DNA of 21,923 nucleotides from a virus (taxonomy: Duplodnaviria > Heunggongvirae > Uroviricota > Caudoviricetes): positions 1 through 21,923 of the IMG/VR virus record IMGVR_UViG_2690316233_000017, one strand, 5' to 3'. Of this stretch, positions 593-21,923 are shown piece by piece. Numbering within the stretch: position 1 is the first letter of the stretch; each line of letters begins with the position of its first letter. The notes under the pieces are model-generated. The model was not told the DNA's origin. It was given only the letters and a program-made list of their open reading frames with translations, and searched no databases. The position numbers and the translations under genes are program-made.

Positions 593-634
593 AGCGACCT
601 CCCTTAACGTGGTGCTGTCGCTATTCTAAGTTCC

Positions 635-3086: not shown

Positions 3087-3598
3087 TGGCTGTACCAAAA
3101 CATCTTCGCTTTTTTACGCTGTTTGTGGATGGTGAAAACGAAGTGGGTAAGGTGACGTCCGTCACTCTGCCTAAGCTGACGCGCAAAACCGACAGCTACC
3201 GGGGTGGTGGCATGATGGGTGCGGTAAGTATTGATCTCGGTCTGGACGACTCCGCGCTTGATGCGAGCTTTGTCATGGGGGGCGCAGTTCGTGAGCTGTT
3301 CCTTAAGTATGGCGGCACGATTGACGGCACGCTGCTGCGTTTTGCGGGTGAATACTACACCGATGCAGAAAGCGACCTGTATGAAGTCGAAATGCGCGGA
3401 CGTGTGACGGAAATTGATATGGGGGAAGCCAAACAGGGCGAAGCCACATCACACACTTACGCCATTAAAAACACCTACTACAAGCTGAGTGTTAACGATC
3501 GCCCGTTGTGGGAGATTGACCTGCTGAACTTCATTTACCGGAAGGACGGCAAGGACATTGTGCCCGATCGCATCCGTTCCGCGCTCGGGCTTGGCTGA
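3086..3598 (+). CDS. FII: Tail tube protein
   Basis: 170-aa ORF directly after the sheath gene; its ATG overlaps the FI stop (TGATG). Size and position match P2 FII. Confidence 0.9.
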   Translation: MAVPKHLRFFTLFVDGENEVGKVTSVTLPKLTRKTDSYRGGGMMGAVSIDLGLDDSALDASFVMGGAVRELFLKYGGTIDGTLLRFAGEYYTDAESDLYEVEMRGRVTEIDMGEAKQGEATSHTYAIKNTYYKLSVNDRPLWEIDLLNFIYRKDGKDIVPDRIRSALGLG

Positions 3599-3652
3599 TA
3601 AGTAATATGCAGGCGGCGCAGTGCGTCGCCTCTGACTGAAAGGAGTTTCCTG

Positions 3653-4018
3653 ATGAAAGAGACGAAAAACATCGATACCGAAAACACGGTCGTTGCTGAC
3701 ACTGTGAAAGAAACCAGTGAGCGTGGCGTAAAACTTACCCAACCAATTGAGCGAGGCGGCGAAAAAATCACGTATGTGGAGATCACCGGGGCTATTGAGC
3801 AGGCTGGATCTCTGCGAGATTTATCGCTGTCTGATGTGCTGAATCTGAAAGCGGAATCCATGTTTACGCTGCTGTCACGCGTGACATCACCGCGACTGGA
3901 TGAAGTGACGATCAAAAAAATGGCATCCCGTGATTTTATTCAGTTATGTGTGGTTGCCGTAAATTTTTTGAGCGGTGCGGACTCTGGCGGGAAGAACGAA
4001 CAGGCGACGGAAGCCTGA
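3653..4018 (+). CDS. E: Tail assembly chaperone E (zero-frame product)
   Basis: 121-aa ORF between the tube and tape-measure genes, with AAAGGAG RBS. Contains a T TTT TTG slippery heptamer near its 3' end. Confidence 0.8.
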   Translation: MKETKNIDTENTVVADTVKETSERGVKLTQPIERGGEKITYVEITGAIEQAGSLRDLSLSDVLNLKAESMFTLLSRVTSPRLDEVTIKKMASRDFIQLCVVAVNFLSGADSGGKNEQATEA

Positions 4019-4182
4019 TCACGGTTGTGTGCTTTGAGCACATAGAAGACTTTGTGGCGGATATTGCCGCCATTTTTAACTGGTCGCCCGCCGAAATCTT
4101 CATGATGACGCCCGGCGAAGTGGTTAGCTGGCGTGAGCGGGCGGCACTTCGCAGCGGGAATGCAGACAATGAAGACTCTTGA
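3653..4182 (+). CDS. E': Tail assembly chaperone E+E' (predicted -1 frameshift product)
   Basis: The -1 frame is open from 3946 to 4182 and overlaps the end of E. A shift at T_TTT_TTG (3964..3970) would join the two frames, analogous to P2 E/E' and lambda G/GT. Confidence 0.55.
3964..3970 (+). other. Programmed -1 ribosomal frameshift slippery heptamer T_TTT_TTG
   Basis: The heptamer is in phase with the E reading frame (codons aat-ttt-ttg) and lies inside the E/E' overlap window. Confidence 0.55.
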
Positions 4183-6976: not shown

Positions 6977-6988
6977 GGAGTCATGGCC

Positions 6989-7477
6989 ATGATGATGATC
7001 TACGGCATGTTTGTTTTTGAGCTGCGCACGCTGCCGCATCAGCAGTTACAGCAAAACAAAAGCTGGCGGCATGTGAAAAATGAGCGCGTTAACCGTTCAG
7101 CAAGCTGGCAGTATATCGGTGCAGGTGATGATCGCATCGTTCTTTCTGGTGTGCTTTATCCTGAAATTACAGGTGGCGAAGTGTCGCTGTCGCTGCTGAC
7201 CACGCAGGCGTATACAGGACGACCCTGGCCTTTGATTGATGGCGTCGGGCAGATTTACGGCATGTATGTCCTGACCGGAACGAATACGACCCGTTCCGAG
7301 TTTGATCGCTACGGTAAGGCGAAAAAGATAGAATTTTCACTGACCCTTGAACGCTGTGATGAGGATTTGCGGGAGCGCCTGCAATCCTCATCGTTCAGCG
7401 ATATGCTGTCCGGCTTCAAAGATAAAGTGACATCATCCCTTAACAGCGCGGCCAGTTCAGTTAAAGGGCTGTTCTGA
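6989..7477 (+). CDS. U: Tail protein U
   Basis: gpU-like ORF immediately after T. GAGGAG at 6975..6980 is spaced 8 nt from ATG 6989; the ATG at 6983 is only 2 nt from it. Confidence 0.8.
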   Translation: MMMIYGMFVFELRTLPHQQLQQNKSWRHVKNERVNRSASWQYIGAGDDRIVLSGVLYPEITGGEVSLSLLTTQAYTGRPWPLIDGVGQIYGMYVLTGTNTTRSEFDRYGKAKKIEFSLTLERCDEDLRERLQSSSFSDMLSGFKDKVTSSLNSAASSVKGLF

Positions 7478-7484
7478 TTTAATG

Positions 7485-7524
7485 CTGGCCACTCATACCC
7501 TCATACCTGGTAATGAGTGGCCAG
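7485..7524. terminator. Perfect 12-bp inverted repeat hairpin just after the U stop; possible bidirectional terminator
   Basis: CTGGCCACTCAT (7485..7496) and ATGAGTGGCCAG (7513..7524) flank a 16-nt loop, followed by TCTT. The U-tract is weak, so terminator function is not certain. Confidence 0.35.
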
Positions 7525-7647
7525 TCTTAACACTCACCATTTGATTGCACCAGTGTTAACGATTTGTTACCGGATATCAGACGCGCTGGATAGCCAGTAG
7601 AAACATACCATTAAAATTATTACAATAATTGGTCACATGATTATCTT

Positions 7648-8211
7648 ATGCTAAATAATAGAGATATGAATATTAATGAACTTAAAGACTGTATTCACTA
7701 TGAAGTAATCGGTAGCGAGCGTCCTTTCTCCTGGCGAAAGGCAATTGTTCGCGCAATAAAACATAGAAGAGTTCGTTATTTATTTTGGTGGCGCATAGCC
7801 AAATACCTTTTTGATAAAGGCGGATACTGTCGGAAGATTGCGGGGAAAATAGAACGTTTCATTCTTGATAAATATAATGTAACAGTCCCTTTAACTGTAA
7901 ATATAGGGAAAGGCTTTGATATTTCTTATCTCAATAGTGTTGTTATCGGTCACAAAGTAACCATCGGTGAAAATTGTTCAATAAAACCAGGGGTAACTAT
8001 TGGGCTACGTGGTGATTTTAATGATATGGATATTGTTATAGGACATAATGTGACCATTGGTTGTAATGCCACCATTCTTGGTGGCAAAGTGCGTATAGGA
8101 AACAATGTCACAATAGGTGCTCATGCATTGGTATTGCATGATATTCCTGATGATTCAACATTCATCACTAAATTTCAGTCTGAAGTTATCTGCTCGTCCT
8201 CCCGCACATAA
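7648..8211 (+). CDS. Hexapeptide-repeat (left-handed beta-helix) acetyltransferase, WcaB/CysE-like; cargo gene
   Basis: Repeated [LIV]-G-x-x-x-x hexapeptides ([22 protein letters not shown]...[34 protein letters not shown]) after a helical N-terminal region, as in serine/sugar O-acetyltransferases. Strongly AT-rich by eye compared with the flanking phage genes. Start could also be ATG 7666. Confidence 0.7.
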
Positions 8212-8792
8212 CCCTGATTCATCAGCTCTGGCCATACGATATCCGGAGCTGTACTGGTGTCAATTCGACTCACTAATACTCTGTATTTTCTCCAGGAATC
8301 CAGTTGTGAATTTTCCTCGTTTGTTGCTATTTCAAGATTAACGGCATCCTGCAGAATTGCGATGTTATCTGTTGCCTCCTGGATCAACCTTGCCTTTTTC
8401 TCTTCCGCTTCCCGTATCCGAAACAGTTTTTCTGCTTCCTCATCCTTCACCCAGGATACGCCGTCCCACTTCTGATACTCCCCTGCTGGCGACAACCAGG
8501 TGACATTCTCTGGTAGCGGTCCGGGTTCAGAAATAAACAACGCGTCCCCCGAGGCCACGTCATAGACCGTTTTACCACGATGGTCTTCAACAATATTCCA
8601 CGATTCATTTTCACTGTTAAAAACTGCCACAAAGCCAGCAGGAATTTCCGGTGGGGCGATATCTGTAGAATTAGCTGGCAGCCCTGTATGAGGTGGAATA
8701 TATGCGTCACCTTCACCAATAAACTCATTAGTTCCGGCCAGCAGGTTATAAATTTTTACAGTACGTGATTGTTCACTCATTCTGAATGCCAT
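8175..8792 (-). CDS. G: Tail fiber assembly protein (Tfa chaperone)
   Basis: C-terminal ...[19 protein letters not shown] matches the conserved Tfa motif. ATG at 8792 overlaps the H stop (TAATG) with GAGG RBS. The last ~12 codons overlap the acetyltransferase gene 3' end. Confidence 0.8.
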
Positions 8793-10792
8793 TATGCAAG
8801 CCTCACAATATAATTAAATGCGATGTTTTTAACGGTGTTTTCCGCGTTACCAGCAGCGTTAACGGTGATGGTATGTCCATGTGAACCAATCGCAACAGAG
8901 TGCGTATGAGCGCCAATACCAACTGTATGTGCATGCGCCCCTGCACTTGCAGCAGTGCCTGATACTGAGTGGGTGTGTGCACCAGAAGAAGGCACTGTTC
9001 CATTCCCCACGACCGTGCCACTTGATGCACCATCAAGCCAGTCGAAATTCATACCTCCACTGTTTGGTCTCCTTAATGGAACGGTATGAGTATGTGCGCC
9101 AGCACTATTTGCAGTACCAGATACATTGTGGGTATGTGCACCTGTGTTATTCGTTGATTTAGTACCGTAATCAAACGACGATGTGGTTTTCGTACCCAAA
9201 TCCGTACTGGATGCGCTGGCACTGTGGGTGTGCGATTTAATGCCATCCTGTTCCTGAGACAATACGGCTCGACCACTTGCGGGCTTGCCCTTGATTGTCC
9301 AGCCACGCATATCGGGGAGTACACCAGAGGGATAAGCTGCTGCAAGCAGGGGATAGGTTGTTTTATCAAAAGTCTGCCCCTGCATAACGGCATAGCCTGT
9401 AGGCACTGAATCAGAAGGCCACGGAATCGCCGCACCTACAGGAAATGAATCCTGCGGCGTCCATGCTGTCCAGTCACCCGTTGAGTACTGGCTGCGGGTA
9501 TAGCTTCTGGATGTGTTATACACATAGTAAATCTGTGTTATCCCGGCACTTTTAAGCACAACCAGTGTACCGGCAAGATTCTCTGGGTATTTCAGCGCTG
9601 CACTTGTATTGGCATTCGCAGGCTGATGGTACAGCCCCGGCGTTTTGTAATTATCCAGATTCTGGTTTGCACCAATCTCAATACTCTGATCGTTAAAAAT
9701 ATCCTGTGATGTAACATTGACATCATTGGTCAGTGGTTTGCCATTAACCTTACGTCCAGAGGGCACACGCCCGTTTGCATTGTCATTAGCAGCTTTCACC
9801 GCTTTCGGAGTCGCGGCAAGCGTTTCAGACGTGCTGTTGGTTGCACTAGTAAGCTGGACTATCCCTTTTTGTGCTGTTGTTGCATCCTGTGCGGTGTATT
9901 TGCCATTAGCAAGGTCATATGCTGCCTTTACCGCCTTTGGCGTTGCCGCCAGCGTTTCAGAATCGCTGTTGGTGGCACTACTTAGCTGGACAAGACCTTT
10001 TCGCTCTGTGGTAGCGTCCTGTGCGGTATATTTCCCGTTAGCAAGGTCATATGCTGCCTTTACCGCCTTTGGCGTTGCCGCCAGCGTTTCAGAATCGCTA
10101 TTGGTGGCGCTACTGAGCTGAACAAGGCCTTTTCGCGTCGTGCTGGCATCCTGCGCAGTATATTTCCCGTTAGCAAGGTCATACGCGTCCTTTACTGCTT
10201 TCGGCGTTGCAGCTTGTGTTTCAGACACGCTGTTAGTGGCGCTACTGAGTTGAACAAAGCCTTTTGCGGTCAGCGAGGCGTCCGGGTGACGTCGTGACTG
10301 TTCATGCTCTTTCAGTTTGTCATCCACGTAATCCACTGTGGCCATCACCATGGTGTTATCCACGGTAAGTGCCACGGTGGCAGTGCTGGATACGGTCAGA
10401 ATGGTGCGAAATGTCTGTGCACGACCGGACCCTTCGGCAACGGCTGGCTTGTAACTTTCGGCAGTATTGCCTACCGCGATTAAATCGCCGTGCTCATCAA
10501 ACACACCAATTTCCCGGATCCAGAATCCGCCCGTTTCTGGAGGAATAGCCAGCTCCGCAATAATGCGGTTCTGATGTGTTGCGTCCAGGAAGACGCGATT
10601 AACGGTATGTCGCCACACCTCACGCACAAGACGGGTCTGCTTACTGTCTGGCGTGGGTAAAGTACCGCCGCCGTCACCCACGGCCATATGTGTCAGGCGG
10701 ACGGGTTTACCATCTGGTGCGGCTGCCTGCGCTAATTTTTTGGCACCCGTATCGGTGATAATGGTTTTAAATTTTCGTGTTGTGGTACTCAT
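8792..10792 (-). CDS. H: Tail fiber protein
   Basis: 666-aa ORF with an N-terminal region like P2 H, four tandem 44-aa repeats, and a His-rich C-terminal domain with repeated G-A-H-T-H-x-V motifs. Confidence 0.9.
9765..10290. repeat. Four tandem ~132-bp repeats inside the tail fiber gene
   Basis: The same core sequence recurs at 9909, 10041 and 10173 (period 132 bp), with a more diverged copy upstream. It encodes ...[42 protein letters not shown]... four times. Confidence 0.8.
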
Positions 10793-10794
10793 GC

Positions 10795-11325
10795 TTAATC
10801 GTCCGGATAGATGGTAATGACTTCACCGTCGTAAGTTGCTGCCGCTGCGAAAATATCTCCCGGGATCTCCTGAATGATATTCAGCCCTGTCATGTGGCGG
10901 CTGACCGGGCGGGCATCAGCAATCAACCGCTCCATTTCCAGATACATTTCCTCCGTCACGCCACTGTCCAGCGTGCCGACTTCAACGGTAAATGTTCCCG
11001 GTTCTCCGCCGAACTCCCACCACTCAGACACACGAATGAGGTATCCCAGCGGCTCAATGGCCCGGCGCAGTACGCTGATGGTCCCTTTGTGTCGGTGTAT
11101 CAGCCATGCATCACGAATAACCTGTCGCTTTGTCTCTTCCGGCCAGTTGCGATCCCAGCGGTCAACGGAAAATGCCCAGGCGAGATAAGGCAGCAGATGC
11201 ACCGGGCATGTGTCCGGCGACCACAGCGTGTTGAGGTCTACCGGAATGTCTGTAATGCGCGTTCCGACGGCTTCGGCACAACGCATGAAATTGCTGGCTG
11301 ATGGTGGTAACAGCGAATTACTCAT
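10795..11325 (-). CDS. I: Baseplate/tail protein I
   Basis: gpI-like ORF between H and J. Start set at ATG 11325 with GAAGGTGG RBS; the track's start at 11358 is GTG with no RBS. Confidence 0.8.
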
Positions 11326-12214
11326 TGCGCCCACCTTCGCTGATGGTGAACGACTCACAGCGCGCCGCCTGTATGTCGCTGATGGCCATATTCTGTGTGG
11401 GTTCGATTATCTCCACGCGTTGCACACCGTGCACATGCAGTGCGGCAGCAATGGCGGACAACGCCACGTCCTGACCGATAAGCCCCTGCTCAGCCAGCCA
11501 CTTCCTGAACGACGATTCCGCCGCAGCCAGAATAGGTTCGGATTCCGGGCCGGGGTAAAAGTACAGTTTTGCATTCAGCCGCCATGTCACGATTCTGGCA
11601 CTCTGTACGGTCAGGCGGTCGGCCACCGGACGGGTATCCTCTGCATTCAGAACGGCGCGAACGGTATTAAGCAACGCCTCCGTTGCTGTGCCGTCGCCTT
11701 CAGTGGACAGGATGGAAACCGTCACATTTGCCGGAGACGGGCTGATGGCCCGCGCATCACGCACCAGACCGCTGGCGCTGCGGGCAAAATACTCGTATGC
11801 ACCTGACGGGCCAGCAACACTCAGGCCGTCGTACGCCCGCTGCGCCCGCAGTCTCAGTGAGGTGTCACTCTCCATCACCGCGTCGGTGGTATCCGTTGCC
11901 GGAGTGATGGTCAGGCGCTTTGTGTTCATATTGCCCGCGAGGTTGTCCAGGTCTGTCCCGGTGCTGTGGCTTAACATGCAGGCCCGTGCCCCCTCATTGA
12001 CCCGCTGGCGTAACAGCATTTCACGAAACGCTGTTATCTGGGCGATAACGTTCAGGGGTTCCGATTCCAGCTCCAGCGCGGCGGAGACGGCTTCACGCTG
12101 TTCGGCGGGATAAGCCGCAATCATCATGGCCTTTGTGTCAGCCAGAATTGCCTCAAAATCAGGCTCCGCGATAATGGCGGGGTCCGGTAACTGGGAAAGG
12201 TCAACAGCAGGCAT
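11318..12214 (-). CDS. J: Baseplate assembly protein J
   Basis: 298-aa ORF matching P2 J in size (about 302 aa) and position; overlaps the I start by 8 nt. Confidence 0.85.
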   Translation of the reverse strand: MPAVDLSQLPDPAIIAEPDFEAILADTKAMMIAAYPAEQREAVSAALELESEPLNVIAQITAFREMLLRQRVNEGARACMLSHSTGTDLDNLAGNMNTKRLTITPATDTTDAVMESDTSLRLRAQRAYDGLSVAGPSGAYEYFARSASGLVRDARAISPSPANVTVSILSTEGDGTATEALLNTVRAVLNAEDTRPVADRLTVQSARIVTWRLNAKLYFYPGPESEPILAAAESSFRKWLAEQGLIGQDVALSAIAAALHVHGVQRVEIIEPTQNMAISDIQAARCESFTISEGGRNE

Positions 12215-12217
12215 GAT

Positions 12218-12568
12218 TTACTCTCTCAGCGTGATGGTTAATTCAACATTCTGCATGGTCTGCATGACAGTGCCCGACAGCGTCACCCCGGCGCGGCCTC
12301 CTGCCTTCCAGACAACGTCGATGGCATCCAGGGCAATGCGGGGTTCCCATCGTGTCAGTGCAATCACGGCAGCACTCATGCATTGCAGACGCGTGGTGTT
12401 ATTCATGGGTTCGTCAATCAAATCAGGCACAAGGCTGCCATATTCCCGTCGCATAACCCGGCTTGCCAGCGGGGTGGTCAGGATATCCCTGACTGACTGT
12501 TTCAGGTGCTCCATATCGTTCAGGTTTCCCGTCCCGTCCGGATTCATTCCTGTGTAGCGGGTTGTCAC
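12218..12568 (-). CDS. W: Baseplate protein W (gp25-like)
   Basis: 116-aa ORF between V and J, the size and position of P2 W. Confidence 0.85.
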   Translation of the reverse strand: MTTRYTGMNPDGTGNLNDMEHLKQSVRDILTTPLASRVMRREYGSLVPDLIDEPMNNTTRLQCMSAAVIALTRWEPRIALDAIDVVWKAGGRAGVTLSGTVMQTMQNVELTITLRE

Positions 12569-13146
12569 TGCGGGCCTCCTGTCGAATCGCTGCCGCCTTT
12601 CACGCCACCGTGTTTATGCGTATGCACGGTAATGCCGTTTGAGGTGAAGTTGCCGCCGCTGTGCGTGATATTGCCGCTCATCTTTCCTCCTTTTATGACG
12701 TCAAGCGTCGCCGTTCTCAGAAGGTTTGTGCATTCCACGACGGGCGTATCCAGTTTCACGCTGACGGATGCCTGTAAAGTGGCCGTTTTCATGCCGCTGG
12801 CGCTCAGTGCGCCTGCGTCCACGTCGTAGCGGAACACCGCGCCGTCCGGCGCGCTGATCACGATTTCGTTCAGGCTTTTGCCGGGGGCCGGACTGGCATC
12901 ACTCCACAGGCTGCCAATTATCATGGCGGTTTCCGGGTTGCCGCCAATGCAGGCAATTACCACCTGTTCGCCTGGTGATGGCGGCAGCCACACATTGAAG
13001 GCTCCCGCGCGCGTGGTGTTCCAGCGCAGCCAGCCTGTTTCCAGTTCGCCGCTGCGAACGCGCACGCACCAGGATTCCTCATCAACTTCAGAGATGATCC
13101 CGGTACGGATGATGTTGCTCAGCAGTCGCATGAGTTCTGCGCTCAC
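12565..13146 (-). CDS. V: Baseplate spike/assembly protein V
   Basis: 193-aa ORF at the P2 V position; overlaps the S stop and the W start. Confidence 0.85.
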   Translation of the reverse strand: MSAELMRLLSNIIRTGIISEVDEESWCVRVRSGELETGWLRWNTTRAGAFNVWLPPSPGEQVVIACIGGNPETAMIIGSLWSDASPAPGKSLNEIVISAPDGAVFRYDVDAGALSASGMKTATLQASVSVKLDTPVVECTNLLRTATLDVIKGGKMSGNITHSGGNFTSNGITVHTHKHGGVKGGSDSTGGPQ

Positions 13147-13787
13147 CGTACAGCCTCCGCAATCCGGCCCAGCACCGTGTTATAAATCAGGCGCTCATCT
13201 GCCTGGCTGATACCCAACAGCTCACGTACCGGGTAATCGGTGAAAATGCCCGGCGCAACCTGATCGCGCTCACCGAACTGATGAACGCGGGCAATACGTG
13301 CGGCCACGCCGCTGTAACCCACCGTCACACCGGAAGCATCTGCACGGGCTTTCAGGTAGCGGGCGGTGCGCAGTTTTACGAACATGGGGACGCGCTTTGT
13401 GCTGTCCTGGTTGATGCGCCGGGTGCGTATTTCCAGAAAACGGTCGATGTCATCCCGGTAAAACGTGCGGATATTGTTTTTATCCTCATCCCACCCGGTA
13501 ATGGTTCGCCCGTATTTCCCCGTGTCGTGATGCCAGTTTTTCAGCGTGCGTGCTTCGTTATTCCAGATAAAGCGAATGCGTTCCTGTATCCGGGTTACGC
13601 GGCGTCTGCGTGGTGTCCACGCGGTCCCGTCCGGCGCTTTCTGTGACCGGATACGCGCCTGCTGGGCGCGGCGTAAATCCTGTGCCAGCTTTCTGGCGAT
13701 GTTATTGATGGCCTGCTGATTCAGGCTGTCGCGGATGGCATCAAAGGTTTCATCCACGCGGGTGAATGCCTTATCCATCGCTTTCAC
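13143..13787 (-). CDS. S: Virion morphogenesis / tail completion protein (S position)
   Basis: ORF between R and V, assigned by position. At 214 aa it is longer than the ~150 aa I recall for P2 S, so identity is less certain. Confidence 0.6.
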   Translation of the reverse strand: MKAMDKAFTRVDETFDAIRDSLNQQAINNIARKLAQDLRRAQQARIRSQKAPDGTAWTPRRRRVTRIQERIRFIWNNEARTLKNWHHDTGKYGRTITGWDEDKNNIRTFYRDDIDRFLEIRTRRINQDSTKRVPMFVKLRTARYLKARADASGVTVGYSGVAARIARVHQFGERDQVAPGIFTDYPVRELLGISQADERLIYNTVLGRIAEAVR

Positions 13788-14238
13788 CCCACGTCACATC
13801 CTGGAATACATGCGACCAGTCGCCTTCGGAAGATGGCAGGCGGGGTTTTGGCTCAGGCAGGTGTTCTGCCTGCGGTGTGCCCTGACTGCTGCGCGTGATG
13901 CGAACGCGTTCCCGCAGGGGGAGCGTAAACAGGAGATCGGCGCTGTCATCGTCATTGATAACGGCGGAGAATTTGATGTCCTGATTACGCTCCGGATTGA
14001 GCAACAACTGTGGCTGATTTTCGGATAACCACGCCAGTAGCGGCAGCGTGAGGTCGTCCAGCTCCCCGGCGTAATCCATGACAAACATCACCATCTGATA
14101 GCGGTAAACAAACGAGGGCGTTTCTCCGGTCGTTTCAATGTTGCCGCTTTCCACGAAAATGGTGAATTTTTCCGGGTTGGCCTGACACCATCGGCATGAA
14201 CGGGTCATGGCTTCACGCAGGGAATCAGTTTTCAGCAT
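13771..14238 (-). CDS. R: Tail completion protein R
   Basis: 155-aa ORF starting MLKTDSLREA..., matching P2 R in length and N-terminus. Confidence 0.8.
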   Translation of the reverse strand: MLKTDSLREAMTRSCRWCQANPEKFTIFVESGNIETTGETPSFVYRYQMVMFVMDYAGELDDLTLPLLAWLSENQPQLLLNPERNQDIKFSAVINDDDSADLLFTLPLRERVRITRSSQGTPQAEHLPEPKPRLPSSEGDWSHVFQDVTWGESDG

Positions 14239-14545
14239 GGTTGTTATCCTCGTTGTTCAGTCGTTGCAGCCTGCGCTGTTCCAGTAATTCAATGGCCCGT
14301 TTATCCGCGTTACAGGTTTCCAGTGCATCCAGAAGGCGGTCGCCCCATATACCGAGATTTCCCCATGTGGGAGTATCAGGGAAGGGGGGAGGCGTTACCG
14401 GTATGGTCAGCGTCTGCGGTATAAGCCGGACTGACGGCGCTGGCAGTGGCGCGTTCTGCGTGCCTGCGCAACCTGTCAGTAAAACGAGCGTCAGGCAAAG
14501 CGTGGGCGCATTCATCTTTTGCAATATCGTTGCGTAGCTGTTCAC
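14225..14545 (-). CDS. Outer-membrane spanin lipoprotein (Rz1/LysC-like)
   Basis: Lipobox LLTGC after a hydrophobic signal segment, then a Pro-rich mature region. GTG start at 14545 is preceded by GGAGAGG. The gene begins inside the i-spanin gene in another frame and extends past it. Confidence 0.6.
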   Translation of the reverse strand: MNSYATILQKMNAPTLCLTLVLLTGCAGTQNAPLPAPSVRLIPQTLTIPVTPPPFPDTPTWGNLGIWGDRLLDALETCNADKRAIELLEQRRLQRLNNEDNNHAEN

Positions 14546-14783
14546 GTCTGGCCTCTCCGTCCTGATTTCGCTGTTGATTTTCCACGCGGAGTTGCGCCAG
14601 CACCTGCTGCATATCCTGCACCCCGGTGCTGATGATATTCAGGGTGTCGACGGTACTTTTCAGGGCGCTGGCCTGCGCTTCGTTTCTGGCGTTCTCCCGG
14701 CCCAGCGACCACGACAGGCGCATGGATGTTCCCCATGCGGCAATCAGAAGGAAAGCGACACCCAGCGTGGGCCAGAGCTTCAT
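14376..14783 (-). CDS. Inner-membrane spanin (Rz/LysB-like)
   Basis: N-terminal transmembrane segment (LWPTLGVAFLLIAAWG) followed by a charged, coiled-coil-like periplasmic domain. ATG 14783 overlaps the endolysin stop (ATGA). Confidence 0.65.
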   Translation of the reverse strand: MKLWPTLGVAFLLIAAWGTSMRLSWSLGRENARNEAQASALKSTVDTLNIISTGVQDMQQVLAQLRVENQQRNQDGEARREQLRNDIAKDECAHALPDARFTDRLRRHAERATASAVSPAYTADADHTGNASPLP

Positions 14784-15172
14784 GCCGGATAGGCTCCGTG
14801 TGGTAACTGAAAATGCGGTCCGTCTTTCAGGGTCTTCCAGTCGCCGCCCCATTCCACCGGAATATTCAGTTCCCGGCTGGCCTGTCTGAATGCTGCTGCG
14901 ATTTTTTCGTACAGCGGCCATTCCCATGACACCTGGCTGCCGATATAAGCCACAACATCCACGGCATGTCCCGTAAGGTGGCGGCTGTTCATGGTCTGGC
15001 TCTTACCCGTGGCCACCAGTTGCTTCTGGCGGTAACGGCTGCGCAACCCTTCGGTGATACCAAAATCCACTTCCGAAATTTCCAGTGCCCGTCGGGTCAC
15101 TTTCACCAGATCAGGATTTACGCCCTGCAAATTCTTTTCGCTCCGGCTGCTGAATTTAAATGTGTTGCTCAT
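14780..15172 (-). CDS. Endolysin, peptidase M15 (VanY-like) family
   Basis: Contains the S-x-H-x-x-G-x-A-x-D zinc-peptidase signature (SRHLTGHAVDV) and a C-terminal His (QLPH). ATG overlaps the holin stop (ATGA). Confidence 0.8.
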   Translation of the reverse strand: MSNTFKFSSRSEKNLQGVNPDLVKVTRRALEISEVDFGITEGLRSRYRQKQLVATGKSQTMNSRHLTGHAVDVVAYIGSQVSWEWPLYEKIAAAFRQASRELNIPVEWGGDWKTLKDGPHFQLPHGAYPA

Positions 15173-15492
15173 TCGTCCTTCTCCTTCACCCTGCGATTAA
15201 AGGCCGCAATAACCTTGTCGCGTGCTTTCTCTGCGCCCATAAAACCGATTGATGCGCCGATAAACGTCACGGCATCTTCAGGAAACCCGAAGAAGCGCAA
15301 CGACCCGGCCACGGCCATGGCAAGAACGCCGCACGCCAGCGATCCCGTTACGGTCTGAACCAGTGTTCGTCCGTCATAAAGACTCATCAGCGCGGAAATG
15401 CTGACCGCCGCGCCTACTGCATACACCGTTGGCAGGTGGTCAAAGAGCCACGCAATAACCTGCTCTGTGATCCCTGTTTGAATGGTGCTCAC
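15169..15492 (-). CDS. Putative holin, three transmembrane segments
   Basis: 107 aa with three hydrophobic segments and a charged C-terminal tail (EKARDKVIAAFNRRVKEKDE). GTG start at 15492 is preceded by GGGGGAG and follows the X stop directly. Confidence 0.6.
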   Translation of the reverse strand: MSTIQTGITEQVIAWLFDHLPTVYAVGAAVSISALMSLYDGRTLVQTVTGSLACGVLAMAVAGSLRFFGFPEDAVTFIGASIGFMGAEKARDKVIAAFNRRVKEKDE

Positions 15493-15494
15493 TG

Positions 15495-15695
15495 CTACTC
15501 CCCCCACAACTGAATCATTTCTCGTTTCTTCTTCTCCGGCTCCGGCATCTCCACTTCCTGCCCGGCGTCCAGAAATACCTGCTGACAGAGTCCGGGGTTG
15601 GCATCCAGCACCTTTTCGGTGACGCCCTGCGTCGTGCCGTAGTACCGGAAACAGAGCGAATCCACGGTGTCGCCTTCCAGTGCCTTCACTTTCAT
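15495..15695 (-). CDS. X: Tail protein X (LysM-like)
   Basis: 66 aa, MKVKALEGDTVDSLCFRYYGTTQGVTEKVLDANPGL..., resembling P2 X. Start set at internal ATG 15695. Confidence 0.8.
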   Translation of the reverse strand: MKVKALEGDTVDSLCFRYYGTTQGVTEKVLDANPGLCQQVFLDAGQEVEMPEPEKKKREMIQLWGE

Positions 15696-16189
15696 CAGCA
15701 CAACTCCGCAAAGATTCGCGGGCGGCACAGAATGTCAGAGATGGCCCAGCTCACATCGCGCCACAAATCCGATGTCTGTATATCCAGTGCGTCCGCCCGG
15801 CGGTCGCCCTTGTCCGTTGTGTCCGCATCGCGGTAACGCTCCAGAATCAGGGCGCGTGTGGCGGTGTAAACCGCATTGCGCCAGTGCCAGAGATTGACGC
15901 TTTCTCCGTTAATTACGGGTGCCGGAACATCGGCCAGCGTCTGATGGCCAGCCGCCTGCTGTTCCTGCTGCCACGCTTCCAGCTCGCGGGTAACGTGTGC
16001 CACAGCTCCGGTGGCAGTATGCAGCAGGCGGGAGGTGGTCACGCGGCCCGGCAGTCGTACCGCCAGACGCAGCTCGCGCAGCACAATATCCGGCCAGAAT
16101 GCACCCGCTGAAATACGGGTATCACCATCATCGGTATCGGTGATGTCGTCCTCTGCGGGTCCGGGGTTGGTTCTGGCAACCATACTCAT
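15695..16189 (-). CDS. L: Head completion/stabilisation protein L
   Basis: ORF at the P2 L position (about 165 aa against 169 in P2). Start set at ATG 16189 with AGGAG RBS at 8 nt; the track's 16198 start is a GTG inside that RBS. Confidence 0.75.
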   Translation of the reverse strand: MSMVARTNPGPAEDDITDTDDGDTRISAGAFWPDIVLRELRLAVRLPGRVTTSRLLHTATGAVAHVTRELEAWQQEQQAAGHQTLADVPAPVINGESVNLWHWRNAVYTATRALILERYRDADTTDKGDRRADALDIQTSDLWRDVSWAISDILCRPRIFAELC

Positions 16190-16203
16190 GGGGTTCACTC
16201 CTG

Positions 16204-16274
16204 AAAAAAATCGGGCGGTGGGTGCGCGGTGTAAACGGTCACGGAGTCAAACCGGAACACCGCGCACGCCGCCC
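16204..16274 (-). terminator. Imperfect GC-rich hairpin followed by a U7 tract between M and L
   Basis: On the minus-strand transcript, two 7-bp stems (GGGCGG.../CGCGGTG with their complements) separated by an internal bulge are followed by ATTTTTTT, immediately upstream of the L RBS. Confidence 0.35.
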
Positions 16275-16291
16275 GCTGACGGGGTCAGTCG

Positions 16292-17092
16292 TTAACCGCG
16301 TTTCGCCTTCTGCGTCGCGGTGGTTTTTCGTGTCGCAGGCTTCCGCGTTGTCTTTTTACTTTTGCTGCTTTCGTCCTGCGCCTGCTGTGCGCTGGCGTCT
16401 TCTGGTGCGGCTGCGGAATCGGCTTTTTTCAGGGCGCGGGAAAGGGTTGCAATCTCGCGTTTCACACCTGCGTTCGGGTTCAGGTGCATTGCTTCGCGCA
16501 GCAGCTTCAGTGACAGGGCCATGCTGTCCGCATCACTCAGGCCACGGCGGGCAAAGGCGCACGCCTTGCATAATTTGGCGCGCACTTCGTCCGGCATGTC
16601 CTGGTCTGTGACAATCTCCCGGAGGGTATTCAGTGGTTCGATAAAGGCGGACAAATCCGCGTCGGCATCCGTCCCGGCCCGCGTCAGTACCGGGTTGCAG
16701 ATTTCTTCGGTCAGCACTGTGGCAGCAGTACGGCCAAAGTTATCCGGCATGATGAGGTTATGACGGACCACATACGCCCCGATACGCAGCGCCAGCGGAA
16801 GATCGCCGCAGTCAATCGCCCACACCATCAGCGTGGCAATCACTTCGTCCTGCTGCCCGCCGTCAGCCTCCAGCGTTCCCTCAATCCAGCCGGAAAAGTC
16901 CGGCAACAACTCTTTTTTGATGGCGGCTTTCGCGCTTCTGGCCTGTACGCCCTTAAGCCGGGCCTGTGCCAGACGCAGACGATACAGCACCTCTTCATGC
17001 GCGGTACGCGCGGCGTGGTCCGCGCCTTCATTCGCCCGGCCTGCGCGCTGTGCCATCACGTTCTGCCAGTGTTGCTGTGCAGGAGTAATCAT
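16292..17092 (-). CDS. M: Terminase small (endonuclease) subunit M
   Basis: 266-aa ORF at the P2 M position with a basic C-terminal tail. GGAGAG RBS 5 nt upstream of ATG 17092. Confidence 0.85.
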   Translation of the reverse strand: MITPAQQHWQNVMAQRAGRANEGADHAARTAHEEVLYRLRLAQARLKGVQARSAKAAIKKELLPDFSGWIEGTLEADGGQQDEVIATLMVWAIDCGDLPLALRIGAYVVRHNLIMPDNFGRTAATVLTEEICNPVLTRAGTDADADLSAFIEPLNTLREIVTDQDMPDEVRAKLCKACAFARRGLSDADSMALSLKLLREAMHLNPNAGVKREIATLSRALKKADSAAAPEDASAQQAQDESSKSKKTTRKPATRKTTATQKAKRG

Positions 17093-17109
17093 TTTTTCTC
17101 TCCGTTACA

Positions 17110-17128
17110 GGCGGGCATGATGCCCGCC
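17110..17128 (-). other. Short GC-rich palindrome between N stop and M start
   Basis: GGCGGGCAT-G-ATGCCCGCC is a perfect palindrome with no following U-tract, so it looks like an mRNA stability or processing hairpin rather than a terminator. Confidence 0.3.
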
Positions 17129-17137
17129 ATGAGTTGA

Positions 17138-18190
17138 TTAGCTGTCGGCGAACTTCAGGCCAGTGACCATCGCGCACTTGCCATAGTCTTCAACGACATA
17201 AGCGTCATTGATGGACTGGTAGGTGGCGATGCGGTTGTATTCCGGTTCGTCTTTCATCAGACGACGCATTGAACCTTTCTGCCAGTAAATCGACAGGTTG
17301 TTGAACGAGGTGATCAGCATCGTTGAATCCGGGAAGAACGGCGCAAGGAACACGCCCAGCCCGCCAATGGTGCGCGATGACAGGATGAGCTGCCCGGCGA
17401 GTAATTCCGCATTGGGATTCTGGCCGCTGATGCTGTTCAGCACGGGCAGACGCAGCGAGTTAAACAGGTTGCGCCCCATAATCACCACGAGGTCGTCAGC
17501 TTCCTTGTGCCATTCATCCAGCAGGGATGAGCGCGCGTCCTGTACCAGTGCATCAGCGTTCGCATACTTACCCGCGTGCGCCACGGTGTTGTCCATGTTA
17601 CGGGAGGTCAGCGTCACGTCATTCATAACGCGTTCGCTGGCGTCGGTTCTGATGTGCTCCAGCCACCCCACGTTAACGTCCTGAAGCAGCTTGTTGGTGC
17701 TGAAGTTGGACTCATCCGCGTGAGACGTGCCGTTGAAACCGATCATGATGCGGTCAAGCGCCACCTGTCGGGCAATCTGTGCGCTGATGCGGGACTGAAA
17801 ATCAGGGTGTGCCGCCCAGGCATCAAGCTGCGGATACGAAATAAACGTGTCGTAGTTCACCTGTTCGCACTGGTATTTGCGGTTTTTCAGATCAACCACG
17901 TTATTCGGGTTACGGCGTTTTGTTCCGTCATAACTGGTATTCGTGCGCGCAATCGGTCCTGTGGTATCCAGGAGGATTTTTTCGCCTTTCTGGTCGGTCA
18001 CGCCGATCACGTTAATTCTTTTTGTAAATTCGGTGCTTTCCTTTGAGGCGTTTTCAAAACGCTGCTGCACCGAGGGTTCTACGGTAAATCTCGATACCAG
18101 TGCAGAAACCGGGATATTGTTAAGCGACGCCTGCTGCGCCATATAGCAACCCAGCTTGTTGCGGGTAATATCTGACATCACCAGATTCAT
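17138..18190 (-). CDS. N: Major capsid protein N
   Basis: 350-aa ORF with recognisable similarity to P2 gpN (...KFTVEPSV..., ...NLSIY...DYVVEDY...). AAGGAG RBS 9 nt upstream of ATG 18190. Confidence 0.9.
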   Translation of the reverse strand: MNLVMSDITRNKLGCYMAQQASLNNIPVSALVSRFTVEPSVQQRFENASKESTEFTKRINVIGVTDQKGEKILLDTTGPIARTNTSYDGTKRRNPNNVVDLKNRKYQCEQVNYDTFISYPQLDAWAAHPDFQSRISAQIARQVALDRIMIGFNGTSHADESNFSTNKLLQDVNVGWLEHIRTDASERVMNDVTLTSRNMDNTVAHAGKYANADALVQDARSSLLDEWHKEADDLVVIMGRNLFNSLRLPVLNSISGQNPNAELLAGQLILSSRTIGGLGVFLAPFFPDSTMLITSFNNLSIYWQKGSMRRLMKDEPEYNRIATYQSINDAYVVEDYGKCAMVTGLKFADS

Positions 18191-18212
18191 AAAAATTTGC
18201 TCCTTTGTCTTA

Positions 18213-19049
18213 TCAGAAGTCAGCCAGCTGGTCGGAGGCTGTGCCCGTTGCAGTGAACCGGTTCTGCGGATCGCCGTCCTGCGTGCGCAGTTTTTCCTTC
18301 AGTGCTGTCAGCTCTGTGGTCAGTGACGTAATTTTCTGGCGGTCCTGCTGATGGCGGGTTTCCAGCACATTAAAACGGTCGATAATGTCGGCCTGTGACG
18401 TTGCGACGCCTTCCACCGCTTCCTGAATACGGGAAAAACTGGCGTCATCCGCTTTGCGGCCACGGCCAATAATCCCCATTACGCGGTTAAACCACTGGGT
18501 GCCTTCTTCCTGGCGTTGTTCTGCCATTTCGATGATTTCAGACTCGATGGCTTCGGAGATAAGCGGCGCTTCACCCTGGACACTGTTGAACGTCATTACC
18601 GCCTGACGTTGCTGTGCCGTGAATTTCAGGCGCTCAGTGCCCAGGCTTGCCGGGGTGTCGGTCATCGCCAGCCCGACCAGATAGGCGCGCCCGTTAACGG
18701 AGAACTGCGGGTGCAGTTCGATACTGGAATAGATTTTCTTGCCGTCCGCGACAAGCTGCTTCATGCGCTCGGTCGGTTCGATTTCTGCATACAGCGCAGT
18801 ACGTCCGGCCAGCGGACCTTCCGTAATGTCTTTCGTACTCAGTGCGGTGACATCGCCCATTGCGGAAAATTCGCTTGACGGGCATGGCGAGAGATAGTGC
18901 TCAACGTTCACGCGGGCAGCGTAAACATCCGGGTTGAAGTTCTCGGCGGCTTCACGCAGATGCACCGGACTGATTTCACGGCCATCAACAGTTGATCCGG
19001 AGACAGCCACGCGAAACTTTTTGCGGGATGTCTTTTTTTCATTAGCCAT
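18213..19049 (-). CDS. O: Capsid scaffolding protein O
   Basis: gpO-like ORF upstream of N. Start set at ATG 19049 (MANEKK...) with GAGGGG RBS. Confidence 0.85.
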   Translation of the reverse strand: MANEKKTSRKKFRVAVSGSTVDGREISPVHLREAAENFNPDVYAARVNVEHYLSPCPSSEFSAMGDVTALSTKDITEGPLAGRTALYAEIEPTERMKQLVADGKKIYSSIELHPQFSVNGRAYLVGLAMTDTPASLGTERLKFTAQQRQAVMTFNSVQGEAPLISEAIESEIIEMAEQRQEEGTQWFNRVMGIIGRGRKADDASFSRIQEAVEGVATSQADIIDRFNVLETRHQQDRQKITSLTTELTALKEKLRTQDGDPQNRFTATGTASDQLADF

Positions 19050-19118
19050 AGTTTTTGCCCCTCTGACTGGTTCTTCAGTCATGATGGCAAAGCGTAACAG
19101 GCTGATACAAAGGGCTTT

Positions 19119-19139
19119 TGTTGTAAGAAAACGGCCAGA
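19119..19139. promoter_or_regulatory. Candidate Ogr-dependent late promoter element in the divergent O/P intergenic region
   Basis: TTTTGTTGT-N12-AGAACA lies about 75 bp upstream of the P ATG and closely resembles the motif upstream of FI (1802..1822). Confidence 0.35.
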
Positions 19140-19203
19140 ACAGGGGGTTAAGGAGAACAGTTTCGCGCGCGGGTAATCTTCCTGTAATTACTCAGGGGGA
19201 GCA

Positions 19204-20955
19204 ATGATTCAGGACGCTTTTGTGCGCCAGCGTGCGCGGCAACTTTACTGGCAGGGTTATCCACCCGCAGAAATATCACGTCTGATGGGAATAAACCCGA
19301 ACACGATTTATGCGTGGAAAAAACGCGACCAGTGGGATGAAACGCCACCCGTGCAGCGTGTCACGCAGTCCATCGATGCGCGCCTCATCCAGCTTACTGA
19401 AAAACAGAATAAAACAGGCGGTGACTTCAAGGAAATAGACCTGCTGACCCGGCAGCTTAAAAAACTGCATGATGGCCAGCCGGATGCGACGGCCACAGGA
19501 AAGAAAGGCCGGGCGAAAAAACTCAAAAATCATTTCACGCCGGAACAGATTGCCGCACTGCGGGAAAAAATCATCAGCAGGCTGGAGTGGCATCAGCGGG
19601 GCTGGTTTGACTCCCTGACCCTTTGCAGGGAAGCCGGGATACGTAACAGGATGATCCTGAAATCCCGACAGATTGGGGCGACCTGGTATTTTGCACAGGA
19701 AGCACTGCTGATGGCGCTGCGTGACGATGTGGCGCAACCTTACCAGCGTAACCAGATTTTTTTATCTGCGTCGCGTCGTCAGGCGTTCCAGTTTAAAAGC
19801 ATTATTCAGAAGGCCGCGGCTGAAGTTGATGTGGAGCTGAAAGGGGGCGATAAAATCATCCTCTCCAACGGCGCAGAGCTGCATTTTCTCGGTACTTCTG
19901 CTGCGACGGCACAGTCCTACACAGGCAATTTTTATTTTGATGAATTTTTCTGGGTCAGTCGCTTTGCTGAACTGCGCAAGGTGGCTGGCGCTATGGCAAC
20001 CCTCAGCGGACTGCGGCGCACCTACTTCTCCACGCCATCCACCGAAACGCACGAGGCATACGCCTACTGGAACGGCGACCGCTGGAACGAGAAAAAGGCC
20101 ACGCATAAACGCCAGCGTTTTTCTGTGGACTGGAAAACGCTGCATAACGGGCTTATCTGCCCTGACCGGACGTGGCGGCAAATTGTCACGCTGGAAGATG
20201 TGGTCAATCACGGCTGGAAACACACCGATATCGACGAAATTCGTGATGAAAACACCGAAGACGAGTTCCGCAATCTCTATATGTGTGAGTTTGTCCGCGA
20301 AGGGGAATCGGCATTTAACCTGAATATCCTGATTGGCTGCGGTGTTGATGGGGACGACGACTGGAAAGACTGGAAACCTTTTGCTCCCCGCCCGATGGGG
20401 AATCGTCCGGTATGGATTGGGTATGACGCAAACGGCAGCAGTGGCAACGGCGACAGCGGCGCTGTGTCCGTGGTGGTTCCTCCGGCTGTTCCTGGTGGCC
20501 GTTTTCGAACGGTGGAGACGCGACGCGTTCAGGGGCTGGAGTTTGAAGAACAGGCCAGAGTCATTGAAGAGTTCACGTATCGCTACAACGTGGAACACAT
20601 CGGCATTGATGTGACGGGCGGGAACGGGGAGGCTGTTTATCAGATAGTGAAACGGTTTTTCCCTGCTGCTATTCCGTACACCTTCACGCTGTCATCAAAA
20701 CGGTCGCTGGTACTGAAAATGCTGCAAATAATGCGTGCCGGGCGGTGGGAATACGATCGCGCCGAACGCGAGCTGGTCGCGGCCTTTAACGCCGTGCGTA
20801 AGGTGAAAACACCGGGCGGCTTTATCACTTACGAAACGGACCGAGCGAGGGGGATCAGCCACGGCGACCTTGCGTGGGCAACCATGCTTGCTGTCATTAA
20901 CGAACCGATTGGCGGCGAAGGAGAAAACGAGCGTTTCACGGTTATGGAGTTCTGA
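19204..20955 (+). CDS. P: Terminase large (ATPase) subunit P
   Basis: 583-aa ORF divergent from O, as in P2 (P about 590 aa). Terminase-like sequence throughout. Confidence 0.9.
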   Translation: MIQDAFVRQRARQLYWQGYPPAEISRLMGINPNTIYAWKKRDQWDETPPVQRVTQSIDARLIQLTEKQNKTGGDFKEIDLLTRQLKKLHDGQPDATATGKKGRAKKLKNHFTPEQIAALREKIISRLEWHQRGWFDSLTLCREAGIRNRMILKSRQIGATWYFAQEALLMALRDDVAQPYQRNQIFLSASRRQAFQFKSIIQKAAAEVDVELKGGDKIILSNGAELHFLGTSAATAQSYTGNFYFDEFFWVSRFAELRKVAGAMATLSGLRRTYFSTPSTETHEAYAYWNGDRWNEKKATHKRQRFSVDWKTLHNGLICPDRTWRQIVTLEDVVNHGWKHTDIDEIRDENTEDEFRNLYMCEFVREGESAFNLNILIGCGVDGDDDWKDWKPFAPRPMGNRPVWIGYDANGSSGNGDSGAVSVVVPPAVPGGRFRTVETRRVQGLEFEEQARVIEEFTYRYNVEHIGIDVTGGNGEAVYQIVKRFFPAAIPYTFTLSSKRSLVLKMLQIMRAGRWEYDRAERELVAAFNAVRKVKTPGGFITYETDRARGISHGDLAWATMLAVINEPIGGEGENERFTVMEF

Positions 20956-21823
20956 TGAGCAGAAAAAATAAAAAAGTGCGCATGAGTTCACGCATTGATC
21001 TCGCTGATGCGCTCAGGAAAGAATCGTCGCTCAGTGCATTCACTTTTGATGGTCCTTATCGCCTGACCGGGCATGATTTGCTGGACAATATGTACTGTGC
21101 TGATAACGGGCGGTGGTATGAAACCCCGGTGGACTGGTACGGTCTGGCAAGAGCTGCCCGGCAAACGTCCTGGCATCAGTCTGCGCTTTACTTTAAGCGC
21201 AATGTATTGCTCGGTTGCTACATCCCGCACCCGCTGCTTTCCCGGCAGGATTTCTCGGCGCTGGCGCTGGACTGGTTTGTGTTCGGTAACGCATTCCTTG
21301 AGCTTCGGAGCAATATGCTCGGCGAACCACTTAAATTACGGCACGCACTGGCGAAATACATGCGACGCGGAAGCGATCTTGAATCATGGTGGTATGTGCA
21401 GGATGGCAAGGACGCGTTTCAGTTTCGCCCTGGCAAAGTGTGCCACCTGATGAATCCGGACATTAACCAGGAAATTTACGGCATGCCGGAATATCTTGGC
21501 GCATTACTCTCGGCCAGCCTGTCTCATTCGGCGGACATGTTCAGAAAACTGTATTACGACAATGGATCCCACGCCGGGTGCATCATCTACATCGGTGCAG
21601 CGCAGGTAAACCGCGAAAGCATGGACTCCCTGAAAGAAACGTTACAGGGTGCGCGTGGTGGTGGCGCGTTTAAAAACGTGCTCATCCATGCGCCCAACGG
21701 GGGCAAAGAGGGGGTGCAAATTTTGCCGTTCCAGCAGATCACCGCAAAGGATGAGTTCATGAATGTTAAGGCGGCATCCCGTGATGATGTGCTGGCTGCG
21801 CACCGCGTTCCGCCGCAACTGAT
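20955..21823 (+). CDS. Q: Portal protein Q, 3'-truncated by an insertion at 21824
   Basis: Open frame starting at an ATG that overlaps the P stop (TGATG), with portal-like sequence. Absent from the ORF track because there is no in-frame stop before the window ends. From 21824 the reading frame runs into Tn5-end-like sequence, about 290 codons in, against roughly 344 aa that I recall for P2 Q. Confidence 0.75.
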
Positions 21824-21923
21824 CTGTCTCTTATACACAAATCCCCACCCGGGGATTTGTGATGTCTGTCAGTCTGCTTTAGGGGGACTCTTTCCATCCG
21901 GTAGTTTCCTTCCTCCCCGGCAG
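21824..21923. mobile_element. Terminal inverted repeat of an IS50/Tn5-like (IS4-family) element; element continues beyond the window
   Basis: CTGTCTCTTATACACAAAT at 21824..21842 matches 17 of 19 positions of both the Tn5 outside end (CTGACTCTTATACACAAGT) and the mosaic end (CTGTCTCTTATACACATCT). It is followed by an 8-bp-stem hairpin (AAATCCCC-ACCC-GGGGATTT) and sequence unrelated to the portal gene. Confidence 0.45.

What the first reader, a model, noticed from the sequence alone, without database searches (positions are those of the whole stretch)
21780..21923. Portal gene interrupted by a Tn5/IS50-like terminal repeat
The portal reading frame runs from 20955 into CTGTCTCTTATACACAAAT at 21824, a 17/19 match to the Tn5 outside and mosaic ends. 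Downstream sequence is unrelated to the portal gene and does not match the Nextera adapter sequences I know, so this looks like a genuine IS4-family insertion, or an engineered mini-Tn5, rather than adapter contamination. A portal truncated about 50 residues short would make the prophage defective for particle production. The minus-strand 'MYKRQ...' ORF at 21587..21838 is a by-product of this sequence.
Basis: partly seen in the sequence, partly recalled or inferred. Interest (0 to 1): 0.5.

Follow-up and report, generated by a model that had tools for sequence, protein, structure and literature searches.

The report
ISEc13 insertion truncating a prophage portal gene
The last 100 bases of the window are the start of ISEc13, a known natural Tn5-like jumping gene of E. 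coli, which has landed in the portal gene of a P2-family prophage and cut off its last 59 codons; this is an ordinary event.

Summary
The portal ORF starts at 20955. It matches intact 348-aa portals of P88-like (Xuanwuvirus, P2-family) prophages up to base 21823 (99.8% to the closest) and not beyond. Bases 21824-21923 are 100/100 identical to nt 1-100 of ISEc13, a 1550-bp IS4-family element. Its transposase is a clear homologue of Tn5 transposase (E 6e-84). Matches to this 100-bp end occur in 1376 of 5426 complete E. coli genomes, and EPEC E2348/69 holds about 32 ISEc13 places. Three copies with unrelated flanks (the window and two reference copies) all begin at the same first base, CTG. It is not a Nextera adapter: it departs from the mosaic end at positions 17-18 and no adapter tail follows. 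It is not IS50 or a mini-Tn5 either, because the internal sequence differs. The sequence stops because the short-read contig ends inside a multi-copy repeat; GCA_001283825.1 has the same junction and ends 2 bp further on. The transposase, the right end and the 8-9-bp target duplication therefore cannot be seen here. The truncated portal lacks the last 46-48 positions of the portal_PBSX profile. Every other late gene compared with phage P88 is full length. Loss of virion production is likely but untested. The finding is known biology and of low interest.

The parts
19204..20955 (+). Large terminase gene (583 aa), full length. It lies immediately upstream of the portal gene and overlaps it in ATGA. 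Context only.
   Evidence: ORF. Same length as the P88 and CH4793 terminases. Pfam Terminase_5/6N/6C on the identical protein.
20955..21823 (+). 5' part of the portal gene (P2 gpQ / PBSX type): codons 1-289 plus 2 nt of codon 290. The intact gene has 348 codons.
   Evidence: Two mismatches in 869 nt against the intact portal gene of E. coli CH4793, and identical to Logan contig L005, which has an intact portal. TIGR01540 scores 178 bits but covers only profile positions 1-272 of 320; the intact protein covers 1-318.
21815..21823 (.). Predicted target site, (G)CAACTGAT, expected to be repeated at the unseen right junction.
   Evidence: Nine full ISEc13 copies elsewhere carry 8- or 9-bp direct repeats. 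The site lies between ccgcc and ggggg, loosely like the C-run/G-run context of 8 of those 9 sites. This is a prediction and was not observed.
21824..21923 (+). Left end of ISEc13, nt 1-100 of the 1550-bp element. The window ends here.
   Evidence: 100/100 identity to the ISEc13 copies in pMAR2 and O157:H7. Three unrelated flanks (the window and two reference copies) diverge at the same first base.
21824..21842 (+). Terminal inverted repeat and presumed transposase binding site of ISEc13, CTGTCTCTTATACACAAAT. It contains TTATACACA, as does the IS50 outside end.
   Evidence: 17/19 to the Tn5 OE and ME. It pairs with the ISEc13 right end...AGATCTGATCAAGAGACAG, in the reference copy.
21836..21861 (+). 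Perfect 11-bp hairpin with a 4-nt loop (CACAAATCCCC ACCC GGGGATTTGTG) inside the IS end. Its role was not tested.
   Evidence: Inverted repeat I7 in the reference copy. The 100-nt end folds at -36.4 kcal/mol, z = -4.3.
21587..21838 (-). Spurious 83-aa ORF ('MYKRQ...'). Its GTG start is created by the IS end and it runs antisense to the portal gene.
   Evidence: ORF list. It overlaps portal coding sequence that is 97-99.8% conserved.

Best explanation
A copy of the natural insertion sequence ISEc13 has transposed into the portal gene of a P88-like, P2-family prophage of E. coli. ISEc13 belongs to the IS4 family and is a relative of IS50/Tn5. The junction lies between window bases 21823 and 21824. 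By homology with Tn5, the ISEc13 DDE transposase would bind the 19-bp ends, excise the element and insert it at a staggered cut. That cut should leave an 8-9-bp duplication, predicted to be (G)CAACTGAT. The portal gene loses its last 59 of 348 codons. If the IS copy resembles the pMAR2 reference, the frame runs on for 99 IS-encoded codons and gives a 388-aa hybrid protein. The missing segment includes conserved positions of the portal family, so the prophage most likely cannot build DNA-filled heads. Its tail, lysis, capsid and terminase genes remain full length. The sequence ends 100 bp into the IS because a short-read assembler stopped inside a multi-copy repeat. Shown here: the identity of the IS end, the exact junction, and the truncation. 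Inferred: the transposition mechanism, the completeness of this IS copy, the presence of the portal 3' end beyond it, and the loss of function.
For: Portal identity stops exactly at 21823 in all 1073 E. coli and 16 phage records that cover at least 80% of the query. Bases 21824-21923 are 100/100 identical to ISEc13 nt 1-100. The reference element is 1550 bp with Tn5-like ends and carries a 457-aa transposase annotated as ISEc13 family. That transposase matches NF033590 at 514 bits and Tn5 transposase structures at E 6e-84. The window copy and two reference copies with unrelated flanks all start at the same base. Nine full-length copies in other genomes carry 8-9-bp target duplications, so the element does transpose. 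ISEc13 is multi-copy, with up to 32 places per genome. The public draft contig CXZV01000019.1 of GCA_001283825.1 is identical to the window over its last 6720 nt and ends only 2 nt further. Logan contig L005 is identical up to the junction and has an intact 348-aa portal, which points to a recent event. The truncated portal covers TIGR01540 positions 1-272 of 320, against 1-318 for the intact one. The window is otherwise colinear with phage P88 over 2722-7482 and 9924-21823, and with an O121 prophage over 1-21823, and the late genes compared have full-length ORFs.
Against: Only one IS end is visible. The transposase, the right inverted repeat, the target duplication and the portal 3' end are not in the window. 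The exact junctions were not found in the complete E. coli genomes, GTDB species representatives, IMG/VR or JGI metagenomes. Many ISEc13 copies in complete genomes are internally deleted or frameshifted, so this copy may be defective. The loss of portal function is inferred, not measured.
Confidence: 0.85

Rival explanations
1. The ISEc13 end marks the border of an IS-mediated rearrangement (adjacent deletion, inversion, or recombination between two ISEc13 copies). On this reading the portal 3' end and the early half of the prophage do not lie on the other side of the element, so it is not a simple insertion.
For: Only the left junction is visible. Some reference copies lack target duplications, for example pMAR2 and the O157 copy, which shows that ISEc13 copies do take part in rearrangements or decay. 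Genomes with many copies exist.
Against: Nine of nine intact 1550-bp copies sampled from other sites have clean 8-9-bp duplications, so simple insertion appears to be the usual outcome. The portal site loosely fits the element's target context. An otherwise identical prophage with an intact portal exists.
Confidence: 0.1
2. This is a sequencing or assembly artefact: Nextera (Tn5 mosaic-end) adapter read-through, or a chimeric join that happens to look like an IS end.
For: The first 16 bases, CTGTCTCTTATACACA, are shared with the mosaic end used in tagmentation libraries. The junction lies at the end of a contig.
Against: Positions 17-18 differ from the mosaic end. The next 81 bases are native ISEc13, not adapter, and neither adapter tail occurs in the window (the adapter tail sequences come from my own knowledge). 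A random chimera would not begin at exactly nt 1 of a 1550-bp element. Portal and IS share no sequence at the junction that could mis-join a de Bruijn graph. The same junction is present in a public NCBI draft assembly.
Confidence: 0.03
3. This is an engineered mini-Tn5 or EZ-Tn5 insertion, or IS50/Tn5 itself, from a transposon mutagenesis experiment.
For: 17/19 similarity to the OE and ME ends.
Against: Engineered elements carry exact ME or OE ends. The sequence inside the end matches ISEc13 at 100% and not the IS50 sequence next to the OE (AGCGTCCTGAACGG...). The same 100 bp occur in 1376 of 5426 natural complete E. coli genomes.
Confidence: 0.01

Closest known systems
ISEc13 (IS4 family), reference copies in EPEC E2348/69 chromosome and plasmid pMAR2
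   Same: Window 21824-21923 is 100/100 identical to nt 1-100 and starts at the same terminal base.
   Different: Only 100 of 1550 bp are visible here. The insertion site in a P88-like portal gene is not found in any of 5426 complete E. coli genomes.
IS50 / Tn5
   Same: The left end is 17/19 to the IS50 outside end, including TTATACACA. The ISEc13 right end is 19/19 the sequence I recall for the IS50 inside end, CTGTCTCTTGATCAGATCT; that sequence is from my own knowledge and was not found in a paper here. The transposase is homologous over residues 6-453 (E 6e-84). The transposase stop codon lies within the right end. Target duplications are 8-9 bp.
   Different: It is a separate element. The internal DNA sequence is unrelated at the left end, and the transposase is diverged (457 aa here; the aligned Tn5 transposase chains are 477-481 residues). 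Most duplications sampled are 8 bp, whereas Tn5 makes 9 bp (from my own knowledge of Tn5). The sites sampled favour hairpin-like targets.
Portal protein of phage P88 / P2 gpQ (portal_PBSX, TIGR01540)
   Same: 97.5% nucleotide identity to the P88 portal gene over 21000-21823. Same position after the large terminase gene.
   Different: Truncated after residue 289 of 348 and fused in frame to IS-derived codons.

Membership tests
ISEc13 (IS4 family, IS50-like) | Terminal sequence identical or near-identical to the reference element, starting at its first base | tested here: met
   100/100 identity to the pMAR2 and O157 copies. Flanks diverge at the same base.
ISEc13 (IS4 family, IS50-like) | Encodes a DDE transposase of the IS4/Tn5 type | not testable with these tools
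   The window ends 65 bp before the transposase start codon of the reference copy. In the reference copy the feature is met (NF033590 at 514 bits; Tn5 transposase at E 6e-84).
ISEc13 (IS4 family, IS50-like) | Second terminal inverted repeat at the other end | not testable with these tools
   Absent from the window. Present in the reference as ...AGATCTGATCAAGAGACAG. The right-junction pattern was not found in genome contigs or viral contigs.
ISEc13 (IS4 family, IS50-like) | Short direct target duplication (8-9 bp) flanking the element | not testable with these tools
   Only one junction is visible. Nine reference copies have 8-bp (7 copies) or 9-bp (2 copies) duplications.
IS50 / Tn5 or engineered mini-Tn5 | Exact 19-bp OE, IE or ME end followed by IS50 or cassette sequence | tested here: not met
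   17/19 to OE and ME. The downstream sequence differs from the IS50 sequence next to the OE.
Nextera adapter contamination | Exact mosaic end followed by the adapter tail CCGAGCCCACGAGAC or GACGCTGCCGACGA | tested here: not met
   Two mismatches to the mosaic end. No adapter tail anywhere in the window. The tail sequences are from my own knowledge.
Phage portal protein, PBSX / P2 gpQ type (TIGR01540) | Full-length match to the family profile above the curated cut-off | tested here: inconclusive
   The score of 178.4 exceeds the cut-off of 166.05, so it is a member by descent. Only profile positions 1-272 of 320 are covered, so it is a truncated member.

The most novel reading that the evidence does not exclude
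With only the portal knocked out and every compared tail, baseplate, lysis, capsid and terminase gene intact, the prophage might persist as a producer of headless contractile tails (an R-type bacteriocin-like particle). It would then be a snapshot of an IS-driven first step in the domestication of a P2-like phage. Separately, the apparent preference of ISEc13 for the loop of C-run/G-run hairpins may not have been described.
Probability: 0.06. Interest if true: 0.4.

Novelty: already known. Interest (0 to 1): 0.1.

Why it matters
It matters little beyond annotation. The junction should be labelled as an ISEc13 insertion that disrupts the portal gene. The prophage should be flagged as probably unable to form virions. 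The antisense ORF and the portal-IS hybrid frame should not be called as genes. There is also a caution for artefact screens: the first 16 bases of ISEc13 are identical to the Tn5 mosaic end used in Nextera libraries. Adapter trimmers could clip genuine ISEc13 junction reads, and screens could wrongly flag such junctions as contamination.

Tried and rejected
I looked for the same junction elsewhere. The left-junction 30-mer had no match in genome contigs, viral contigs or metagenome contigs. The right-junction pattern with a variable gap had no match in genome contigs or viral contigs. No complete E. coli genome covers more than 89% of the junction-spanning query.

I tried to reach the other contig of the source assembly through the gene next to the portal. 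The homologue search returned no exact representative. The exact protein sits on at least 1000 contigs, too many to be useful. Look-up of P0002 returned an unrelated 1740-bp contig.

Exact look-up of the 323-aa partial product and the predicted 388-aa hybrid found neither in the protein collection.

The adapter, mini-Tn5 and IS50 readings were rejected, as set out under rival explanations. I did not run a structure prediction of the portal. Only the truncated window protein could have been submitted, and without a deep alignment it would not have been informative.

Full report
**Observation**

The window ends with ...CCGCCGCAACTGAT|CTGTCTCTTATACACAAATCCCC.... The 19-mer at 21824-21842 matches the Tn5 mosaic end and the Tn5 outside end at 17 of 19 positions each. 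It is the only match with up to 3 mismatches in the window, against 0.01 expected from shuffles. Both end sequences were verified in the oligonucleotide table of PMC3347997. The portal ORF starts at ATG 20955, overlapping the stop of the 583-aa large terminase gene, and remains open to the last base.

**What lies on either side of the junction**

A query of 21000-21923 matched portal genes in 1073 E. coli records and 16 phage records over at least 80% of its length. In every listed case the match stopped at query base 824, which is window 21823. The phages are P88-like Peduoviridae of the genus Xuanwuvirus.

Base-by-base comparison with the intact portal gene of E. coli CH4793 shows 2 mismatches in 869 nt, then complete divergence. 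Intact portals are 348 aa. The window therefore keeps codons 1-289 and loses 59.

The last 100 bases were searched alone. They matched 1376 of 5426 complete E. coli genomes and 325 plasmids, many at 100% identity and with up to 31 places per genome. In pMAR2 of EPEC E2348/69 the match is the first 100 bp of a 1550-bp element. Its 457-aa gene is annotated 'IS4-like element ISEc13 family transposase'. That protein matches NCBIfam NF033590 (IS4 family transposase) at 514 bits. It also matches the Tn5 transposase structures 1MUH and 1MUS at E 6e-84 over residues 6-453.

The reference element ends with AGATCTGATCAAGAGACAG. This is the reverse complement of the IS50 inside end as I recall it; I did not find that sequence in a paper here. 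The window copy, the O157:H7 copy and the pMAR2 copy have unrelated left flanks, and all begin at the same base, CTG. No other part of ISEc13 and no portal 3' sequence lies elsewhere in the window.

**Is it a real insertion?**

Three points argue against an artefact:
- The end differs from the mosaic end at positions 17-18. It continues as native IS sequence, and neither Nextera tail occurs in the window (the tail sequences come from my own knowledge).
- A random chimera would not start at nt 1 of the element. Portal and IS share no sequence at the junction that could mis-join an assembly graph.
- The public draft contig CXZV01000019.1 of GCA_001283825.1 (88,782 bp) is identical to the window over its last 6720 nt. 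It ends just 2 nt further, 102 bp into the IS. This is the usual sign of a short-read assembler stopping in a multi-copy repeat.

A Logan contig (SRR19671060, L005) is identical up to the junction and carries the intact 348-aa portal. The interrupted allele therefore derives from a very recent intact ancestor.

ISEc13 is demonstrably mobile. Nine full-length copies at different sites carry 8-bp (7 copies) or 9-bp (2 copies) direct repeats. E2348/69 holds 30 chromosomal and 2 plasmid places. In 8 of those 9 sites the duplicated bases lie between a C-run and the complementary G-run. The portal site (ttccgcc GCAACTGAT ggggg) resembles this loosely.

**What cannot be shown**

The window and the matching public contig both stop inside the IS. 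The transposase, the right end, the target duplication and the portal 3' end are therefore unseen. Exact searches for both junctions found nothing in the complete E. coli genomes, the GTDB representatives, IMG/VR or JGI metagenomes. My attempts to reach the neighbouring contig of the source assembly failed.

Two possibilities remain open. An IS-mediated rearrangement, rather than a simple insertion, is possible (about 0.1). So is a defective, internally deleted IS copy: forms of 954 bp (L011) and 1445 bp (L001, L008), and frameshifted copies, are common.

**Consequence**

The truncated protein still scores above the TIGR01540 portal_PBSX cut-off. It covers only profile positions 1-272 of 320, whereas the intact protein covers 1-318. 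The break falls inside the conserved 'VPPQLMG' stretch, which aligns with 'VPPMLIG' of the Rhodobacter capsulatus GTA portal, PDB 6TE8. If the IS copy equals the pMAR2 copy, the frame reads on for 99 codons and gives a 388-aa hybrid.

From general knowledge of portal architecture, the C-terminal part contributes core helices and the crown. I did not test this here. I infer that the protein cannot form a working portal, and that the prophage cannot make filled heads.

The portal is the last gene on its strand in P88, so I expect no polar effect on other genes. The rest of the late region is colinear with P88 (2722-7482 and 9924-21823; 94-97% identity). It is also colinear with an O121 prophage at 99.2% over 1-21823. 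The late genes compared have ORF lengths that match or exceed those annotated for P88: sheath, tube, tape measure, gpU, baseplate, lysis, gpL, gpM, capsid, scaffold and terminase.

**Comparison with known systems, and verdict**

This is ISEc13, a described IS4-family element closely allied to IS50, inserted into a gene of a described prophage type. IS insertions that inactivate prophage genes are commonplace. The mini-Tn5 alternative is rejected and the defectiveness claim is plausible but untested.

Novelty: already known. Interest: low. One practical note follows: the first 16 bases of ISEc13 equal the Nextera mosaic end, so adapter trimming can erase genuine ISEc13 junctions.

Noticed in passing
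L010, L014-L021 (ISEc13 copies in complete E. coli genomes); compare window 21805-21833: Seven of nine full-length ISEc13 copies have 8-bp target duplications and two have 9-bp ones. In 8 of 9 sites the duplicated bases lie between a C-run and the complementary G-run, that is, in the loop of a GC-rich hairpin resembling a terminator or REP element. This suggests a structural target preference, which I did not check against ISfinder or the literature.
   Followed up: partly
L002:5518-5550 (right end of ISEc13 in pMAR2): The right end is 19/19 identical to the IS50 inside end as I recall it, including its GATC sites, and the transposase stop codon lies inside it. An inward-facing 13-bp copy (GTCTCTTGATCAG) sits 5 bp upstream and forms a perfect inverted repeat with the terminus.
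   Followed up: no
window 21836-21861: A perfect 11-bp stem with a 4-nt loop overlaps the inner part of the IS terminal repeat. The 100-nt IS end folds much better than shuffles (z = -4.3). It might shield the transposase gene from read-through expression, but this was not tested.
   Followed up: partly
window 1-1000: The first kilobase is 100% identical to STEC O121:H19 genomes. There it is annotated as a Hok/Gef family toxin gene, an ogr/Delta-like zinc-finger late activator, and the start of the gpD-like (VgrG/Pvc8 family) gene. A hok/gef module therefore sits at the prophage end.
   Followed up: partly
window 7483-9923 and 9772-10268: The tail-fibre region is not colinear with phage P88. 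P88 has a DNA invertase and alternative fibre genes there. The window has a + strand 187-aa ORF (7648-8211), annotated 'transferase' in the O121 relative. The 666-aa fibre gene contains internally repeated segments offset by roughly 130 nt, at 78-85% identity.
   Followed up: no
L022 (E. coli O121 RM8352 prophage) versus window 635-1876 and 6983-7477: The 99.2%-identical O121 prophage has an intact portal. However, its gpD-like gene is annotated as only a short 801-nt CDS, and gpU and the replication endonuclease are annotated as frameshifted. The window keeps gpD (413 aa) and gpU (164 aa) intact. Related prophages are therefore decaying at different genes.
   Followed up: no
L007 (GCA_902845195.1 contig CADGYK010000330.1, 1740 bp): An unrelated draft assembly has a short contig that ends inside the portal gene only 13 nt downstream of the ISEc13 insertion site seen here. 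This is probably a coincidental contig break, but it is unexplained.
   Followed up: no
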